Of a DNA stretch of 32,367 nt, positions 8,960-13,883 are shown piece after piece; the first letter of the stretch is position 1; every line of letters begins with the position of its first letter. The translations under genes were made by a program, and so were the position numbers. Source of the stretch: Coriobacteriia bacterium. GTDB lineage: Bacteria; Actinomycetota; Coriobacteriia; Coriobacteriales; UBA8131. The notes under the pieces are model-generated. The model was given only the letters and a program-made list of their open reading frames with translations. It made no database searches and was not told where the DNA came from. The stretch lies in assembly GCA_009783245.1 (NCBI GenBank), contig WRHL01000014.1:1-32367 (forward strand), given 5' to 3'.

Positions 8960-9763
8960 GTGAGCCCTTTCAAGCACATACTCAACCTTTTCCTTGCGAC
9001 CAAGGACAGGCCAACCCCTCCTCTCAAGGGGGCAGTCAACTACCTCTTGGTCTGCCTGCTGGTCATTGTGGTGTTCTGGGTATCGATCTCAGCGCTTGAC
9101 GTGAGTTTCAGCTTTGGGTTTGTTGGCTTCTATGGGATACGGATACGCGATGGATTCATCCTCACGGTTCAGCTTTCTGTTGTCAGCTTGATCATAAGCC
9201 TGGTGCTGGGAGGCCTGGTCGCCGGAGGGCACCGGTCACGCATCCTGCCGTTGCGCTACCTGTGTGACGCATATGTCAAGGTGATCAGAGGCACGCCCCT
9301 TATCGTACAGATATACCTTTTCTTCTACATCATCGGTACCGCCTGGGGAATCAAGAACCGTTTCATCGCAGGCGTGCTCATCCTCTCCATCTTTGAGGGC
9401 GCCTATATCGCAGAGATCATCCGTGGCAGCTTCCTTTCGCTCGACGAGACGCAGTTGGAAGCTGCGCGTTCGGTGGGATTCACGAGAAGACAGACTCTGC
9501 GCCACGTGATACTTCCACAGATGATCGCACGGACCCTTCCTGCCCTGACGGGGCAGTTCGCCAATGTAATCAAGGACTCGTCGCTGCTTTCCATCATCGC
9601 GGTCATAGAGATGACACAGACCATGCGCGAGATAAGCGCCACAACCTTCCAATTATTCGAGAGCTATATACTCCTGGGTGCGCTCTACCTGTGCCTTACG
9701 CTGCCTATCACCTTTGTCAGCCGCCTGTTTGAGAAAAGGTTCAACTATGCACGTAAGGCTTGA
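8960..9763 (+). CDS. Polar amino acid ABC transporter permease
   Basis: 267 aa. Probable GTG start. 'VKVIRGTPLIVQIYLFFY' and the EAA-type loop 'LDETQLEAARSVGFTRRQTL' are typical of HisM/GlnP-type permeases. Confidence 0.75.
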   Translation: MSPFKHILNLFLATKDRPTPPLKGAVNYLLVCLLVIVVFWVSISALDVSFSFGFVGFYGIRIRDGFILTVQLSVVSLIISLVLGGLVAGGHRSRILPLRYLCDAYVKVIRGTPLIVQIYLFFYIIGTAWGIKNRFIAGVLILSIFEGAYIAEIIRGSFLSLDETQLEAARSVGFTRRQTLRHVILPQMIARTLPALTGQFANVIKDSSLLSIIAVIEMTQTMREISATTFQLFESYILLGALYLCLTLPITFVSRLFEKRFNYARKA

Positions 9764-10481
9764 GGATATTTGCATGGATTTTGGTGACGCCACCGTATTG
9801 AGCCAGGTGAGCTTCTCTGACCATATAGACAAGCTTGCCATCATCGGGCCTTCTGGTGGTGGGAAGACAACGCTTCTGCGTATCATCGGCGGCCTTTTGA
9901 CGCCAAGCGCTGGCCGCCTGTATCTCGATGGGGAGGAAGTCGATTTCTTGGAGAACAGCCTCCCCGGATACCGGGCGCAGCTTGGCTATGTCTTCCAGCA
10001 GGGGGGGCTTTTCCATCATCTCAGCGCCCTGAAGAACATCGCCCTTCCCCTGCAGGTGGTGCATGGCGTAAGCGAGGAGGAGTCCCTGGAGCGTGCGCGG
10101 CAACTGCTGGAGCGCTTTGGGTTGGGCCAGGAAGGCGACAAGATGCCTGCCCAGCTGTCTGGAGGCCAACAGCAACGTGCCGCAATCGCACGGGCCATCG
10201 CAGCCTCGCCAAAACTGGTCCTGCTCGACGAGCCTACCAGCGCACTTGACCCTGAGTACACCAACGAGGTACTTGATGTCATCAATGACCTGGGGAAGAC
10301 CGGCATCCGCTTCATCATCGTCACCCACGAGATGGGTTTCGCCCGGCATGCCTGCGATAAGATAGCCTTCCTTTGCGGGGGGATGCTCCTGGAGTATGGC
10401 CCGAGCTCAGAGTTGTTTGAGGCCCCATCGACGCCTGAGCTGCAGAGGTTCCTGGGGAAGCTTTTGGAGTGGCGGGTGTGA
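9747..10481 (+). CDS. Amino acid ABC transporter ATP-binding protein
   Basis: Walker A 'GPSGGGKTT', signature 'LSGGQQQRAAIARA', Walker B 'LVLLDEPTSALD'. Start placed at 'MHVRLEDICMDFG' (ATG 9747). Its 5' end overlaps the permease 3' end. The TGA stop lies inside the first unit of a 12-bp tandem repeat. Confidence 0.8.
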   Translation: MHVRLEDICMDFGDATVLSQVSFSDHIDKLAIIGPSGGGKTTLLRIIGGLLTPSAGRLYLDGEEVDFLENSLPGYRAQLGYVFQQGGLFHHLSALKNIALPLQVVHGVSEEESLERARQLLERFGLGQEGDKMPAQLSGGQQQRAAIARAIAASPKLVLLDEPTSALDPEYTNEVLDVINDLGKTGIRFIIVTHEMGFARHACDKIAFLCGGMLLEYGPSSELFEAPSTPELQRFLGKLLEWRV

Positions 10482-11706: not shown

Positions 11707-13401
11707 ATGAAACCTGTAAAGACACGTCTGACAATTGTTCTCTGCGCTCTTGTTCTGCTGTTAGCAGGTTGTGCAGCTGCACAGGATCCTGGTAAAAGCA
11801 GTTCAGTGCCAGAAACGGATTCTCTCCAGGTCAGTGCTGAGCTGTTCCCCCTGTCCTCAGAATGCATCAGGTGTCATAACGATGTTTTTCCAGGTGATGG
11901 CACTCACTATTCGTTTGTTGAGGACTGGTTCAACTCTATCCATGGTCAATCCTCAGTCGACCCGCTTTTCATGGCGGTGGTTCGGCGTGAGACCCTGGAA
12001 CATCCCGATGCCTCTGATGACATCCAGGCGATCTGTGCCAGCTGCCATCTACCAATGGCTGACATGATGGCTATCGCCACAAACCAATCCCGTAGTTTCT
12101 TGGATAATGCCGCCCTTTCTGGCCATGAGCTTAACCAGCTGTACCAAGATGGTGGTTCTTGCATGTTCTGCCACCAGATCACCTCATCGCCCATCGACGG
12201 GAACACCGCTTTCCGCGATACGATAATGTCTGTCAACCTGCACCAGGCTTCTGAGGGCCAGACCCGCTACCTGTATGGTTATCACCCGAGCAGCACGATA
12301 GCCCAGCAACCGATGATACAAGCCCTGGGCTACTCCACCGAGCAAAGCTTTGTAGAACGAAACGAACGGATCTGCACTGTTTGCCACACGCTCTATACGG
12401 ATTCTTTCACGGTAGACGGTCAGCCTACTGGGATGCAGCTGCCAGAGCAGGTAGTTGCCCTGGAGTGGAAGGGATCGGATTGGGGCGATAATTCCTGCCA
12501 ATCCTGCCATATGCCACCTGTTTTAGATGCGGGGCCATTCTCTAATCAGAATGTTGCTGAAGCTACGCAGGGTAGGATCTCCCTGCACAGCTTTGTAGGC
12601 GGCAACGCATACCTTCTGCAACTTAATGGAGGTACCGATGGCTCGCTGGAAAAAGGTGTGACGGCTACAACGGAATTCCTGCAGTCTCAGACGGCAACAC
12701 TTACGCTGAACAGCAGCATTGACGAGACTTCCGGGTCAGGTCCTGTGCTTATGCTGGATGTGGCGATAGACTCTCAGGTCGGCCACAAGTTCCCCACTGG
12801 GTTTCCTTCTCGACGGGCATGGATACACGTGCAGGTGTTTGATGAGGCGGGTTTCCTGATCTATGAATCTGGCGGCTACAACGCTGAAGGCATGATCCTT
12901 GACAACAATGCTGACCTGATCAAAGGAGCATTTGAACCGCACTATTCGATCATCGACCAACCTGGTCAGGTCCAGATCTACGAGTCAGTGATGCTCGACA
13001 GTGACGGCCTGGCAACAACCAGCCTGCTTCAAGGGGTTGTCTATGGCAAGGACAACAGGATCCTCCCTATCGGGTTTGAGAAGAATGAGCAGCAGAGAGA
13101 GGGATTTGCCGGAATCGATAAGAATGACAAGTCGGGTGATGCGGCGGTTGTCGGTGAGGCAGTGGAGGATGAGGATTTTGTCCAGGGTGGCGACATCACC
13201 TACTATCGTATCAGCCTGCCAGCCGATATTGGCGCTGTGGAAGTAAGGGTCGAATTACTCTACCAATCTGTTGGTTACCGCTTTATGGAAGACCTGCTGG
13301 GCCATCCGTCGCCTGAGCAACAGATCCTGGCAGACCTTGTCAAACAGCATCCCAACCTGCCGGTGTTGGTCGCCAAACAGGAGACCAAAGTCATCAGATA
13401 G
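11707..13401 (+). CDS. Lipoprotein pentahaem c-type cytochrome
   Basis: Five CxxCH motifs: CIRCH, CASCH, CMFCH, CTVCH, CQSCH. Sec/lipobox signal 'LVLLLAGCAAAQ'. RBS 'ggaggg' 6 nt before ATG 11707. About 270-aa haem-free C-terminal domain. GC visibly lower than the surroundings. Confidence 0.7.
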   Translation: MKPVKTRLTIVLCALVLLLAGCAAAQDPGKSSSVPETDSLQVSAELFPLSSECIRCHNDVFPGDGTHYSFVEDWFNSIHGQSSVDPLFMAVVRRETLEHPDASDDIQAICASCHLPMADMMAIATNQSRSFLDNAALSGHELNQLYQDGGSCMFCHQITSSPIDGNTAFRDTIMSVNLHQASEGQTRYLYGYHPSSTIAQQPMIQALGYSTEQSFVERNERICTVCHTLYTDSFTVDGQPTGMQLPEQVVALEWKGSDWGDNSCQSCHMPPVLDAGPFSNQNVAEATQGRISLHSFVGGNAYLLQLNGGTDGSLEKGVTATTEFLQSQTATLTLNSSIDETSGSGPVLMLDVAIDSQVGHKFPTGFPSRRAWIHVQVFDEAGFLIYESGGYNAEGMILDNNADLIKGAFEPHYSIIDQPGQVQIYESVMLDSDGLATTSLLQGVVYGKDNRILPIGFEKNEQQREGFAGIDKNDKSGDAAVVGEAVEDEDFVQGGDITYYRISLPADIGAVEVRVELLYQSVGYRFMEDLLGHPSPEQQILADLVKQHPNLPVLVAKQETKVIR

Positions 13402-13410
13402 CAAGTTGAT

Positions 13411-13465
13411 TTGAGGTTAGTCGTCAAAATGACGACCAACCTCAATGGTCGGGACGACAGGATTT
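13411..13465 (-). repeat. Duplicate of the tRNA-Pro 3' end (22 nt) plus its downstream hairpin, with compensatory stem changes
   Basis: 13444-13465 'aatggtcgggacgacaggattt' is identical to 13711-13732. The hairpin 13411-13445 'ttgaggttagtcgtcaaaatgacgaccaacctcaa' parallels 13676-13712 'tttgaggttagcccccataatgggggctaacctcaaa'. Confidence 0.75.
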
Positions 13466-13603
13466 CCGATCGCTCACTTCGTTCGCGCTCTCCCACCTTC
13501 GCTCACGTTGTTCGCTCGGTCTCGCGCCTACAGGCCTGCCACAGGCAGCCCTGTTTAACGGCGCCTTGCCCTGGGGTTCGCGCAAGCGCTCCCCATTCTC
13601 ACT

Positions 13604-13628
13604 GAAAACGTGCCACTGGCACGTTTTC
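13604..13628. terminator. Perfect hairpin 'GAAAACGTGCC ACTG GCACGTTTTC', candidate bidirectional terminator / structural element
   Basis: 9-10-bp perfect stem read directly. No clean T-tract beyond the stem itself. Confidence 0.3.
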
Positions 13629-13650
13629 CTGGCGTTCGAATCCCTTCCCA

Positions 13651-13668
13651 GGTTCAAATCCTGTCGTC
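13651..13668 (+). repeat. Inverted partial copy of the tRNA-Pro T-arm / 3' acceptor ('GGTTCAAATCCTGTCGTC')
   Basis: Matches the T-arm/acceptor 3' half of the adjacent tRNA, but on the opposite strand. Confidence 0.55.
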
Positions 13669-13712
13669 TAAAGCATTTGAGGTTAGCCCCCATAATGGGG
13701 GCTAACCTCAAA

Positions 13713-13789
13713 TGGTCGGGACGACAGGATTTGAACCTGCGACATCCTGCTCCCAAAGCAGGCGCGCTACCAAGCTGCGCTACGTCCCG
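13713..13789 (-). tRNA. tRNA-Pro (anticodon TGG)
   Basis: Minus-strand sequence 'CGGGACG TA GCGC AGCTTGGTA GCGC G CCTGC TTTGGGA GCAGG ATGTC GCAGG TTCAAAT CCTGT CGTCCCG A CCA'. 7-bp acceptor, D, anticodon and T stems all pair. The anticodon loop is TT-TGG-GA. Encoded CCA end. 77 nt. Confidence 0.85.
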
Positions 13790-13883
13790 ACTCCCAAAGT
13801 ACAGCCTTGGTATTATAGCAAAGCGGGAGCTGCAGAGAAGTCCAGTTCGCGGGAAACGGAAGTCTGCCGCAATACAGGGTCAT

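What the first reader, a model, noticed from the sequence alone, without database searches (positions are those of the whole stretch)
13404..13800. tRNA-Pro(TGG) with duplicated 3'-end/hairpin copies: an integration or excision scar flanked by lower-GC cargo
A 55-bp segment is directly repeated 267 bp apart, at 13411-13465 and 13678-13732. The segment comprises the terminator-like hairpin plus the last 20 nt of the tRNA and the nucleotides just beyond it. The hairpin inner stems differ (TCGTC/GACGA versus CCCCC/GGGGG) but both remain self-complementary. That implies selection for the structure. An inverted T-arm fragment (13651-13668) lies between the copies. This is the classic att-type signature of an integrative element at a tRNA 3' end, but the intervening DNA is only about 250 bp. 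That suggests a decayed or excised island. The genes on both sides have visibly lower GC than the ~60% background: the pentahaem cytochrome on one side and the PadR-DUF2812-GNAT operon on the other. That is consistent with horizontally acquired cargo at this tRNA hotspot.
Basis: partly seen in the sequence, partly recalled or inferred. Interest (0 to 1): 0.6.

Follow-up and report, generated by a model that had tools for sequence, protein, structure and literature searches.

The report
Gene-less integration scar at tRNA-Pro
The end of a proline tRNA gene and its downstream hairpin are duplicated 267 bases apart, most likely the leftover ends of a mobile element that once inserted into the tRNA gene; this is a well-known kind of genomic scar and carries no genes.

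Summary
tRNA-Pro(TGG) lies on the minus strand at 13713-13789. Its last 20 nt (plus 2 nt beyond) recur exactly at 13444-13465, 267 bp away. Each copy is followed by a homologous hairpin (H2 13675-13711, H1 13409-13445). The hairpin apices differ by three fully compensated base pairs. An inverted T-arm copy sits at 13646-13668. An independent assembly of the same species shows the identical structure.

The best reading is attL/attR-type repeats left by a site-specific integrase that crosses over in the T-loop. Only 209 bp of non-coding, hairpin-rich DNA remains between the repeats, so this is a decayed, CIME-like remnant.

Support from other loci:
- A termite-gut relative (L194) has three direct copies with the same T-loop boundary.
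- A contig with an identical tRNA and upstream flank (L159) diverges exactly after CCA into 43% GC DNA carrying a toxin-antitoxin gene.
- A phage attP (L006/L007) shows the same hairpin-plus-tRNA-end layout next to an open reading frame that I presume, but did not confirm, to be the integrase.

The cargo claim is not supported. The cytochrome gene and the PadR-DUF2812-GNAT operon lie outside the repeat-bounded interval, and their GC deviation is mild. The 32 kb window has no integrase. This is ordinary, known biology.

The parts
13713..13789 (-). Intact tRNA-Pro(TGG) gene with encoded CCA (plus-strand TGG at 13713-13715).
   Evidence: ARAGORN. Rfam RF00005, 68.8 bits.
13711..13732 (-). Core copy 1, attL-like. 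It covers the last 20 nt of the tRNA (second half of the T-loop, 3' T-stem, 3' acceptor strand, discriminator, CCA) plus 2 nt beyond.
   Evidence: 22/22 identical to 13444-13465. Only two occurrences in the window, 0 expected.
13675..13711 (.). Hairpin H2, a perfect 19-bp palindromic stem that abuts or overlaps the CCA. It is the presumed element-supplied terminator or processing hairpin for the restored tRNA.
   Evidence: -34.9 kcal/mol (minus) and -35.6 (plus), z -8.5 and -10. No U-tract, and not called by the consensus terminator scan.
13646..13668 (+). F2, an inverted copy of the tRNA T-arm plus 4 nt of the acceptor strand (TCcCAGGTTCAAATCCTGTCGTC). It contains the whole symmetric T-stem/loop/stem. 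Together with H2 it makes 48-nt inverted arms with the tRNA 3' half.
   Evidence: Exact 18-mer. I1 arms 90% complementary. A read-through minus-strand RNA is predicted to pair F2's complement with the tRNA 3' half, -93 kcal/mol. Its origin is unexplained.
13466..13645 (.). Orphan non-coding filler between the repeats, 60% GC. It holds three local hairpins, including a perfect 12-bp stem at 13604-13628 and a degenerate T-loop-like GGCGTTCGAATCCC at 13632-13645.
   Evidence: For 13466-13674 the fold z is -5.0 (plus) and -3.3 (minus). No Rfam family. No Pfam hit for the overlapping ORFs. No other copy in the window, the fetched loci, phages, plasmids or IMG/VR.
13470..13515 (+). Two 17-nt direct repeats TCGCTCAC-T-GTTCGC (13470-13486 and 13499-13515, 15/17 identical), 29 nt apart and 4 nt from the displaced core. 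They are candidate arm-type recombinase binding sites; this is an inference.
   Evidence: The pattern has 0.04 chance matches expected in the window (but the pattern was chosen after seeing the data).
13444..13465 (-). F1, the displaced tRNA 3' fragment and attR-like core copy 2. It starts in the T-loop (AAAT), runs through CCA, and adds 2 nt.
13409..13445 (.). Hairpin H1. It is homologous to H2, with an identical outer stem apart from one position and an apex changed by three compensated pairs. It is the presumed original tRNA-Pro terminator. It lies 8 nt after the cytochrome stop codon, so it probably also ends that convergent gene.
   Evidence: It folds better as minus-strand RNA (-25.2 versus -20.8 kcal/mol), because a G.U pair on the minus strand is an A.C mismatch on the plus strand.

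Best explanation
A site-specific recombinase, most likely a tyrosine integrase of the T-loop-targeting kind, once inserted a circular element into the tRNA-Pro(TGG) gene.

Proposed sequence of events:
1. Crossover occurred inside the T-loop.
2. The element supplied a new copy of the last 20 nt of the tRNA together with its own downstream hairpin (H2). This kept the tRNA intact.
3. The original 3' end (F1) and the original terminator hairpin (H1) were pushed to the far side of the element.
4. The element later lost its integrase and all cargo by internal deletion.

What remains is a 267-bp unit: one copy of the core, H2, an inverted T-arm piece, and about 180 bp of hairpin-rich filler that includes a pair of 17-nt direct repeats next to F1. 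In current terminology this is a fully decayed, CIME-like remnant that retains attL and attR but no genes.

The hairpins probably act as terminator or processing structures. H2 would serve the tRNA. H1 would now serve the convergent cytochrome gene.

Shown directly: the repeat anatomy, its boundaries, the hairpin folds, the absence of genes and of an integrase in the window, the parallel loci, and the independent assembly. Inferred: that an integrase made the repeats, which copy is host-derived and which element-derived, the arm-site role of the 17-mers, and the terminator role of the hairpins.
For: 1. The direct repeat of the tRNA 3' end lies downstream of, and in the same orientation as, the intact gene.
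2. [quoted passage not shown] This is one of the canonical sublocations for integrases. It is described for genomic islands in Klebsiella (bioRxiv 10.1101/2020.11.02.365908), for Dehalococcoides ssrA islands with 20-bp repeats (PMC3146451), and for mycobacteriophage Ms6 (PMC1762012, abstract).
3. The core is 22/22 identical whereas the adjoining 36-37 nt differ at 8 positions plus an indel. This is expected if the core is fixed by crossover and by the need to rebuild the tRNA, while the flanks come from different sources.
4. L194, a termite-gut contig with the identical tRNA, has two further direct 3' fragments at about 737 and 845 with the same T-loop boundary (plus or minus 1 nt). The last one is followed by a hairpin.
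5. L159 has the identical tRNA and a 29/29 identical upstream flank, but diverges exactly after CCA into 43% GC DNA. That DNA encodes a hypothetical protein and a HigA-type antidote.
6. IMG/VR phage contigs L006/L007 carry the same 22-nt core as part of a 46-nt tRNA-Pro 3' half that begins 84 nt after the stop codon of a truncated ORF. I presume that ORF is the integrase 3' end, but its 82 visible residues have no Pfam hit. A hairpin lies directly after the CCA, the same hairpin-plus-core layout as H2 plus core.
7. Integrase-less mini-islands bounded by 3' repeats of this same tRNA occur in Melainabacteria: 1.4 kb in L016 and 2.1 kb in L081.
8. The structure is identical in an independent assembly.
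Against: - No integrase or other mobile-element gene was found among 24 main genes of the window scanned against Pfam.
- No attP-bearing element with hairpin H2 or the filler sequence was found in IMG/VR, the JGI metagenomes, phages or plasmids.
- No true empty site (tRNA followed directly by H1) was recovered.
- The outer stems of H1 and H2 are nearly identical (21/22) and the differences cluster in the apex. That is not what two unrelated sources would give. It requires that the element picked up its att flank from a related host's tRNA-Pro locus.
- The inverted T-arm copy F2 is not predicted by a simple integration model.
- The link between L159 and the window rests on only 29 nt of flank.
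Confidence: 0.62

Rival explanations
1. Truncated paralogue. The lineage once had two tandem tRNA-Pro(TGG) genes, each with its own homologous terminator hairpin. The distal copy lost everything 5' of the T-loop through an ordinary deletion or rearrangement. F1 plus H1 would then be a tRNA pseudogene fragment, not an att site.
For: - It explains naturally why H1 and H2 are clearly homologous, with outer stems 21/22 identical and an apex changed by compensated pairs. Both would have been maintained as RNA structures for a long time.
- It explains why the tRNA-derived part is still perfect.
- tRNA genes are commonly tandem in this class. About 110 of 120 related loci have tRNA-Pro followed within about 8 nt by tRNA-Gly(TCC).
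Against: [quoted passage not shown] The same boundary (plus or minus 1 nt) is seen in two independent fragments in L194. A random deletion would not reproduce it.
- None of about 200 fetched loci shows two full tandem tRNA-Pro genes.
- The 209 bp between the copies has no similarity to the tRNA 5' part or to any spacer in relatives.
Confidence: 0.15
2. Replication-based local rearrangement. Slippage or template switching at the long palindromic hairpin duplicated and inverted neighbouring sequence, producing both the direct copy (H1+F1) and the inverted T-arm copy (F2). No recombinase would be involved.
For: - H2 is a perfect 19-bp palindrome, and F2 extends it into 48-nt arms that are 90% complementary. 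This is the kind of structure that template switching can build.
- Compensated changes in a hairpin apex can also arise by intra-palindrome template switching without selection.
Against: - F2 is separated from the hairpin by a 6-nt block, TAAAGC versus CCGACC, with 4 of 6 positions different, while the 23 nt beyond it have one mismatch. A copied arm should be contiguous with the palindrome.
- A slippage duplication of unit A-B should give A-B-A-B, but the filler is unrelated to the rest of the tRNA.
- The model does not explain the T-loop boundary shared with L194, or the divergence exactly after CCA in L159.
Confidence: 0.1
3. A still-active, gene-less miniature element. The 267-bp unit, with intact attL and attR, candidate arm sites and a full inverted T-arm core, would be excised, reintegrated or inverted in trans by an integrase encoded elsewhere in the genome.
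For: - Both cores are perfect.
- A 17-nt direct repeat pair lies 4 nt from the F1 core.
- F2 holds a complete symmetric T-arm core.
- CIMEs that keep attL and attR and are mobilised in cis or trans are documented (PMC5704250; PMC3146451).
Against: - No second copy of the filler or of hairpin H2 was found anywhere searched.
- No integrase is in the window.
- Two strains carry the unit unchanged.
Confidence: 0.08

Closest known systems
attL/attR direct repeats of integrative elements (prophages, genomic islands, ICEs/IMEs/AICEs) inserted in the 3' end of tRNA or tmRNA genes, T-loop sublocation
   Same: - A direct repeat of the tRNA 3' end lies downstream of the intact gene.
- The repeat starts in the T-loop and runs through CCA.
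- The repeat length, about 20 nt, matches the 20-bp ssrA repeats of Dehalococcoides islands (PMC3146451).
- The core is perfect while the flanks have diverged.
- Occupancy varies in a close relative (L159).
   Different: - There is no integrase and no cargo. The bounded interval is only 267 bp and non-coding.
- The similarity extends 37 nt past the tRNA into a homologous hairpin.
- An extra inverted T-arm copy lies inside the interval.
[quoted passage not shown]
   Same: Both att-like repeats are retained, with no recombination or transfer genes in between. It sits at the 3' end of a tRNA gene, where a new element could add on by accretion.
   Different: Described CIMEs are kilobases long and carry genes. 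This unit is about 0.27 kb with no ORF. Its mobility is untested.
Phage attP carrying a tRNA-Pro 3' half (IMG/VR contigs L006/L007 found here; the classical actinomycete example from my own knowledge is pSAM2 integrating in tRNA-Pro)
   Same: The same 22-nt core sequence is present. A hairpin lies directly after the CCA of the tRNA fragment, as with H2.
   Different: The phage is an unrelated low-GC phage. Its tRNA homology extends 46 nt to the anticodon stem, and it has an adjacent ORF that is presumably the integrase. It shows no similarity to the window outside the tRNA part.
MITE-like or REP-like intergenic repeat elements
   Same: The unit is short, non-coding and rich in hairpins. It has 22-nt imperfect terminal inverted repeats (13444-13465 and 13656-13677, 82% complementary).
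   Different: The terminal repeats are simply tRNA-derived sequence. There is no target-site duplication. No other copy was found in the window or in any collection searched.

Membership tests
tRNA-targeted integrative element scar (attL/attR) | Direct repeat of the tRNA 3' end located downstream of, and in the same orientation as, the intact tRNA gene | tested here: met
   13444-13465 equals 13711-13732, 22/22. Only two copies in the window, 0 expected by chance.
tRNA-targeted integrative element scar (attL/attR) | Repeat boundary at a canonical sublocation (anticodon loop, T-loop or 3' end), with identity running through the 3' end of the gene | tested here: met
   Identity starts at AAAT of the T-loop TTCAAAT and runs through CCA. 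The same boundary is seen in L194. Sublocations are taken from the literature.
tRNA-targeted integrative element scar (attL/attR) | Integrase or recombinase gene inside the repeat-bounded interval, usually next to the tRNA | tested here: not met
   The interval is 267 bp with no Pfam-matching ORF. No integrase among 24 main genes of the 32-kb window scanned against Pfam. This is compatible only with a decayed element.
tRNA-targeted integrative element scar (attL/attR) | Variable occupancy of the site among close relatives (empty and/or differently filled) | tested here: inconclusive
   L159 has the identical tRNA and a 29-nt identical upstream flank but different, 43% GC DNA straight after CCA. 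Only 29 nt link it to this species. No empty site was found. Relatives at 55-70% protein identity have no synteny at all.
tRNA-targeted integrative element scar (attL/attR) | Foreign composition of the DNA between the repeats | tested here: not met
13466-13674 is 60% GC against a window mean of 58%.
CIME (cis-mobilizable element) | Retains attL and attR but lacks integration and transfer genes | tested here: met
   Both cores are perfect and no genes lie between them. Definition from PMC5704250.
CIME (cis-mobilizable element) | Can be excised or mobilised by a cognate integrase supplied by another element | not testable with these tools
   This needs raw-read junction analysis or an experiment.
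Intrinsic (Rho-independent) terminator, for H1 and H2 | GC-rich stem-loop followed by a U-tract | tested here: not met
   The stems are strong but have no U-run. The consensus scan does not call H1 or H2. A terminator or processing role therefore remains an inference.
MITE / dispersed repeat family | Multiple dispersed copies, terminal inverted repeats, target-site duplication | tested here: not met
   Single copy in the window and no hits in any collection. No target-site duplication. The rest of the genome was not available.
Known structured RNA (Rfam) | Match at or above the gathering score to an Rfam family other than tRNA | tested here: not met
   Only tRNA passes. The miRNA-model hits are hairpin artefacts far below the gathering score.

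The most novel reading that the evidence does not exclude
The 267-bp unit might not be dead. It could be a gene-less miniature integrative cassette with intact attL and attR, two 17-nt arm-type repeats and a complete inverted T-arm core. An integrase encoded elsewhere in the genome could still excise or reinsert it. The same integrase could also recombine the inverted T-arm (F2) with the tRNA's own T-loop. That would flip the palindromic H2 segment and swap the tRNA's CCGACC end for TAAAGC, giving a recombinase-driven on/off switch for the tRNA-Pro(TGG) gene.
Probability: 0.06. Interest if true: 0.55.

Novelty: already known. Interest (0 to 1): 0.2.

Why it matters
It matters mainly as annotation. 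It marks tRNA-Pro(TGG) as an integration hotspot in termite-gut Coriobacteriia. In this lineage the tRNA-Pro/tRNA-Gly tandem that is usual in the class is absent, so insertion downstream of tRNA-Pro does not break a tRNA operon. The locus could serve as a landmark when looking for islands or prophages in better assemblies of these uncultured bacteria. It also shows that element-borne att regions bring their own hairpin for the rebuilt tRNA. It does not reveal a new mechanism.

Tried and rejected
- Exact look-up of the cytochrome protein from the first in-frame TTG start found nothing. The GNAT and HisG look-ups then located the same-species contig L001/L002.
- Homologues of the cytochrome (63-64% identity; L004, L005) and of DUF2812 (55-70%; L205-L209) were fetched to test synteny. 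None has tRNA-Pro nearby, so at that evolutionary distance synteny says nothing either way.
- Scans for hairpin H2/H1 found nothing, alone in IMG/VR and joined to the tRNA end in the metagenomes. Scans of IMG/VR for the 25-nt perfect hairpin and for the 17-mer pair also found nothing.
- blastn of 13400-13712 against the phage and plasmid collections gave no match.
- The genome-contig scan with the tRNA pattern mostly returned other phyla (Melainabacteria, Peptococcaceae, Acidimicrobiales). Only one Eggerthellaceae locus was returned (L044).
- A hidden tRNA, tmRNA or other RNA family in the filler was rejected.
- A protein-coding role for the ORFs spanning the region (104 aa and 140 aa) was rejected, as neither has a Pfam hit.
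- A tandem repeat array was rejected because TRF finds none.
- An assembly artefact was rejected because an independent contig has the same structure.
- The weak third 'copy' at 13042-13063 (68%, inside the cytochrome gene) was rejected as chance.
- Codon-usage distance per gene tracked gene length and was not informative.
Full report
**What is there**

The window is a 32,367-bp contig of an uncultured Coriobacteriia bacterium. The identification comes from the source name of the cytochrome protein.

ARAGORN and Rfam find one tRNA, tRNA-Pro(TGG), on the minus strand at 13713-13789 with an encoded CCA. Reading leftwards from its 3' end, the features are:
- **H2** (13675-13711): a perfect 19-bp palindromic hairpin that reaches into the CCA.
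- A 6-nt spacer.
- **F2** (13646-13668): a plus-strand, and therefore inverted, copy of the tRNA T-arm plus 4 nt of acceptor strand. It matches 23 nt with one mismatch, and the 18-mer 13651-13668 is exact.
- **Filler** (13466-13645): about 180 bp of non-coding DNA.
- **F1** (13444-13465): 22/22 identical to 13711-13732. [quoted passage not shown]
- **H1** (13409-13445): a second hairpin, lying 8 nt after the stop codon of the convergent multihaem cytochrome gene.

H1 and H2 share their outer stems (one difference and a 1-nt indel). Their apical five pairs are TCGTC/GACGA versus CCCCC/GGGGG, which is three pairs changed on both sides.

**Is it more than chance, and is it real?**
- The 20-nt core with up to three mismatches occurs only at these two places in the window. 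It never occurred in shuffles.
- The hairpin outer-stem pattern also occurs only twice, with 0 expected.
- Both hairpins fold far better than shuffled controls, with z about -8.
- An independently assembled ENA contig from another sample is 99.6% identical over 6.15 kb. It differs at 2 nt across the 451-bp stretch covering the intergenic region. Assembly error is therefore excluded.
The one correction is that the '55-bp repeat' is imperfect: about 84% overall, with a perfect 22-nt core.

**What the surroundings show**

Pfam scans of 24 main genes in the window find housekeeping or ordinary accessory functions. Examples are HisG, ABC transporter parts, MurB, MnmA, TyrRS, a PBP and a U32 peptidase. 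None is an integrase, recombinase, transposase or phage gene; the short 56-313 ORF and two ORFs spanning the scar were also scanned and had no hit.

Window GC is 57.9%. Composition of the flanking genes:

| Gene | GC | GC3 |
|---|---|---|
| Cytochrome | 52.8% | 0.579 (lowest of 24) |
| GNAT | 50.8% | 0.629 |
| DUF2812 | – | 0.67 |
| PadR | – | 0.66 |
| Other genes in the window | – | 0.64-0.85 |

A stretch of similar GC lies at 6.3-9.9 kb. The compositional signal is therefore weak.

The topology matters more. In a tRNA-targeted insertion the foreign DNA lies between the intact tRNA and the displaced 3' fragment. Here that interval is 267 bp. The cytochrome gene lies beyond F1/H1, and the PadR-DUF2812-GNAT operon lies upstream of the tRNA 5' end. 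No more distal copy of the core exists in the window. These genes cannot be cargo of the element that made this repeat.

**Related loci**

*Flanking-gene homologues.* Cytochrome homologues (63-64% identity) and DUF2812 homologues (55-70%) sit in unrelated contexts without tRNA-Pro. Synteny at that distance is uninformative.

*The tRNA itself.* Scanning for the tRNA was more useful.
- In about 110 of 120 metagenome loci with the identical 3' 52 nt, tRNA-Pro is followed within about 8 nt by tRNA-Gly(TCC). These loci are mostly human-gut contigs with this same tRNA; their taxonomy was not checked.
- The one GTDB Eggerthellaceae hit, L044, shows the same tandem after 4 nt.
- The window lacks that tandem. 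So do a few contigs that I take to be from termite guts.

Two of those contigs are telling.
- **L194** has the identical tRNA, then a small ORF, then two further direct 3' fragments (cAATCCTGTCGTCCCGACCA and AAATCCTTTCGCCCCGACCA). Both start at the same T-loop position as F1. The last one is followed by a hairpin.
- **L159** has the identical tRNA and a 29/29 identical upstream flank that includes the TATAAT box. By comparison, L158 matches the window at only 89% over 112 nt spanning the tRNA and its flank. L159 diverges from the window exactly after CCA into 43% GC DNA. That DNA encodes a hypothetical protein and a HigA-type antidote with a partner toxin-like ORF.

*Other comparators.*
- Two IMG/VR phage contigs carry the 22-nt core as part of a 46-nt tRNA-Pro 3' half that begins 84 nt after the stop codon of a truncated ORF. 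I presume this ORF is the integrase 3' end, but its 82 residues have no Pfam hit. A hairpin sits directly after the CCA. That is the same 'hairpin plus tRNA end' module as H2 plus core.
- In Melainabacteria with the same tRNA acceptor and T-arm, integrase-less islands of 1.4 and 2.1 kb are bounded by 3' repeats.

**Most likely mechanism**

The anatomy fits the known picture of site-specific integration into the T-loop sublocation of a tRNA gene.
1. The element's attP carries the tRNA 3' end, so the gene is rebuilt on insertion.
2. The original 3' end is displaced.
3. The result is a direct repeat that starts at the crossover in the T-loop and runs through the end of the gene.

This picture is described in PMC3146451 and bioRxiv 10.1101/2020.11.02.365908 and in the abstract of PMC1762012.

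The perfect core next to a diverged hairpin, the shared boundary in L194 and the divergence exactly after CCA in L159 all favour this model. The element must then have lost its integrase and cargo by internal deletion. Clean excision would have restored a single site. What is left matches the definition of a CIME, which keeps attL and attR but no integration or transfer genes (PMC5704250). This one is shrunk to 267 bp.

H1 folds better as minus-strand RNA, because a G.U pair there is an A.C mismatch on the plus strand (-25.2 versus -20.8 kcal/mol). This fits H1 being the original hairpin of the tRNA transcript. Neither hairpin has a U-tract and the consensus scan does not call them, so a terminator or processing role is an inference.

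The pair of 17-nt direct repeats 4 nt from F1 could be arm-type binding sites. That too is an inference, and the pattern was chosen after seeing the data.

**What does not fit neatly**
- The outer stems of H1 and H2 are almost identical and the differences cluster in the apex. This requires that the element's att flank came from a related host's tRNA-Pro locus. Alternatively, the two copies are old paralogues, which is the rival 'truncated tandem tRNA' model. That model explains the hairpins well but not the T-loop boundary shared with L194.
- F2, the inverted T-arm copy, is not predicted by simple integration. It is also not a simple palindrome extension, because a 6-nt block with 4 of 6 positions different separates it from H2 while the 23 nt beyond have one mismatch.
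- If transcription read through H2, the F2 complement would pair with the tRNA 3' half (-93 kcal/mol).
- The filler is more structured than shuffles, with z -5.0 on the plus strand. It matches no Rfam family and has no copy anywhere I could search.
- No attP, no empty site and no cognate integrase were recovered.

**Comparison with known systems, and novelty**

This works like, and is best filed as, an att-type scar or fully decayed CIME at a tRNA 3' end.

Membership features that are met:
- the direct 3' repeat;
- the canonical T-loop boundary;
- the retained attL and attR.

Features that are not met or not settled:
- an integrase in the interval is not met, which is why it can only be called a remnant;
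- foreign composition of the interval is not met;
- variable occupancy is only suggestive.

It is not a MITE or REP family on present evidence, not a classical intrinsic terminator, and not a known RNA family. The phenomenon is textbook. Only the very small size and the extra inverted T-arm are slightly unusual.

**Verdict**

The att-scar reading stands, while the flanking-cargo and 'excised' readings do not. Interest is low, at 0.2.

The most novel reading not excluded is that the unit is a live miniature cassette, or that F2 and the tRNA T-loop form an integrase-driven invertible switch of the tRNA 3' end. I put that at about 6%.

Noticed in passing
window 13713-13789, compared with L044 and L085-L204: In about 110 of 120 loci carrying the identical tRNA-Pro 3' part, tRNA-Gly(TCC) follows within about 8 nt. 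In L044 (Eggerthellaceae) it follows after 4 nt. The window and a few contigs that I take to be from termite guts (L158, L159, L194) lack this tandem. In L152 the two tRNAs are 325 nt apart.
   Followed up: partly
L194 1-1055 (Ga0209628_10626630): tRNA-Pro is followed by a 128-aa ORF with no Pfam hit, then two more direct 3' fragments at about 737 and 845. The second fragment is preceded by an inverted copy of its own start (AGGATTTG-aagag-CAAATCCT) and followed by a hairpin. This looks like a tandem array of att-like scars.
   Followed up: partly
L159 107-1716 (Ga0082212_10232232): Straight after the CCA of an identical tRNA-Pro there is 43% GC DNA. It has a hairpin, a 256-aa protein with no Pfam hit, and a HigA-type antidote (PF21716) with an overlapping toxin-like ORF. 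It is probably the start of an island, but the contig ends too soon to see an integrase.
   Followed up: partly
window 11707-13401 (+): The multihaem cytochrome (weak MtrC/MtrF domain II/IV hit) has the lowest GC3 of the 24 genes (0.579). Its closest homologues (63-64% identity) lie in entirely different gene neighbourhoods. It may have been acquired separately, but this is not tied to the tRNA repeats.
   Followed up: partly
window 13604-13628 and 13632-13645: A perfect 12-bp hairpin GAAAACGTGCCA-C-TGGCACGTTTTC is followed by a degenerate T-loop-like GGCGTTCGAATCCC just before the inverted T-arm copy. This may be a trace of another tRNA-end fragment.
   Followed up: partly
L016 3113-4575 and L081 3357-5570 (Melainabacteria): The same tRNA-Pro acceptor and T-arm is followed by integrase-less segments of 1.4 kb and 2.1 kb, each bounded by 26-34-nt repeats of the tRNA 3' part. 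The L016 segment encodes an HTH-nucleotidyltransferase, which is toxin-antitoxin-like.
   Followed up: partly
L006 241-400 and L007 2900-3060 (IMG/VR phage contigs): Upstream of the attP there is a triple tandem motif TTGACCAAC-TTTTGACCAAC-TTTTGACCAACC, between the stop codon of the adjacent ORF (presumed integrase) and the attP hairpin. These could be arm-type sites.
   Followed up: no
window 8960-9763 and 9678-10481: The longest ORFs for the ABC permease and the ABC ATPase overlap by 86 nt. The real ATPase start is probably further downstream.
   Followed up: no
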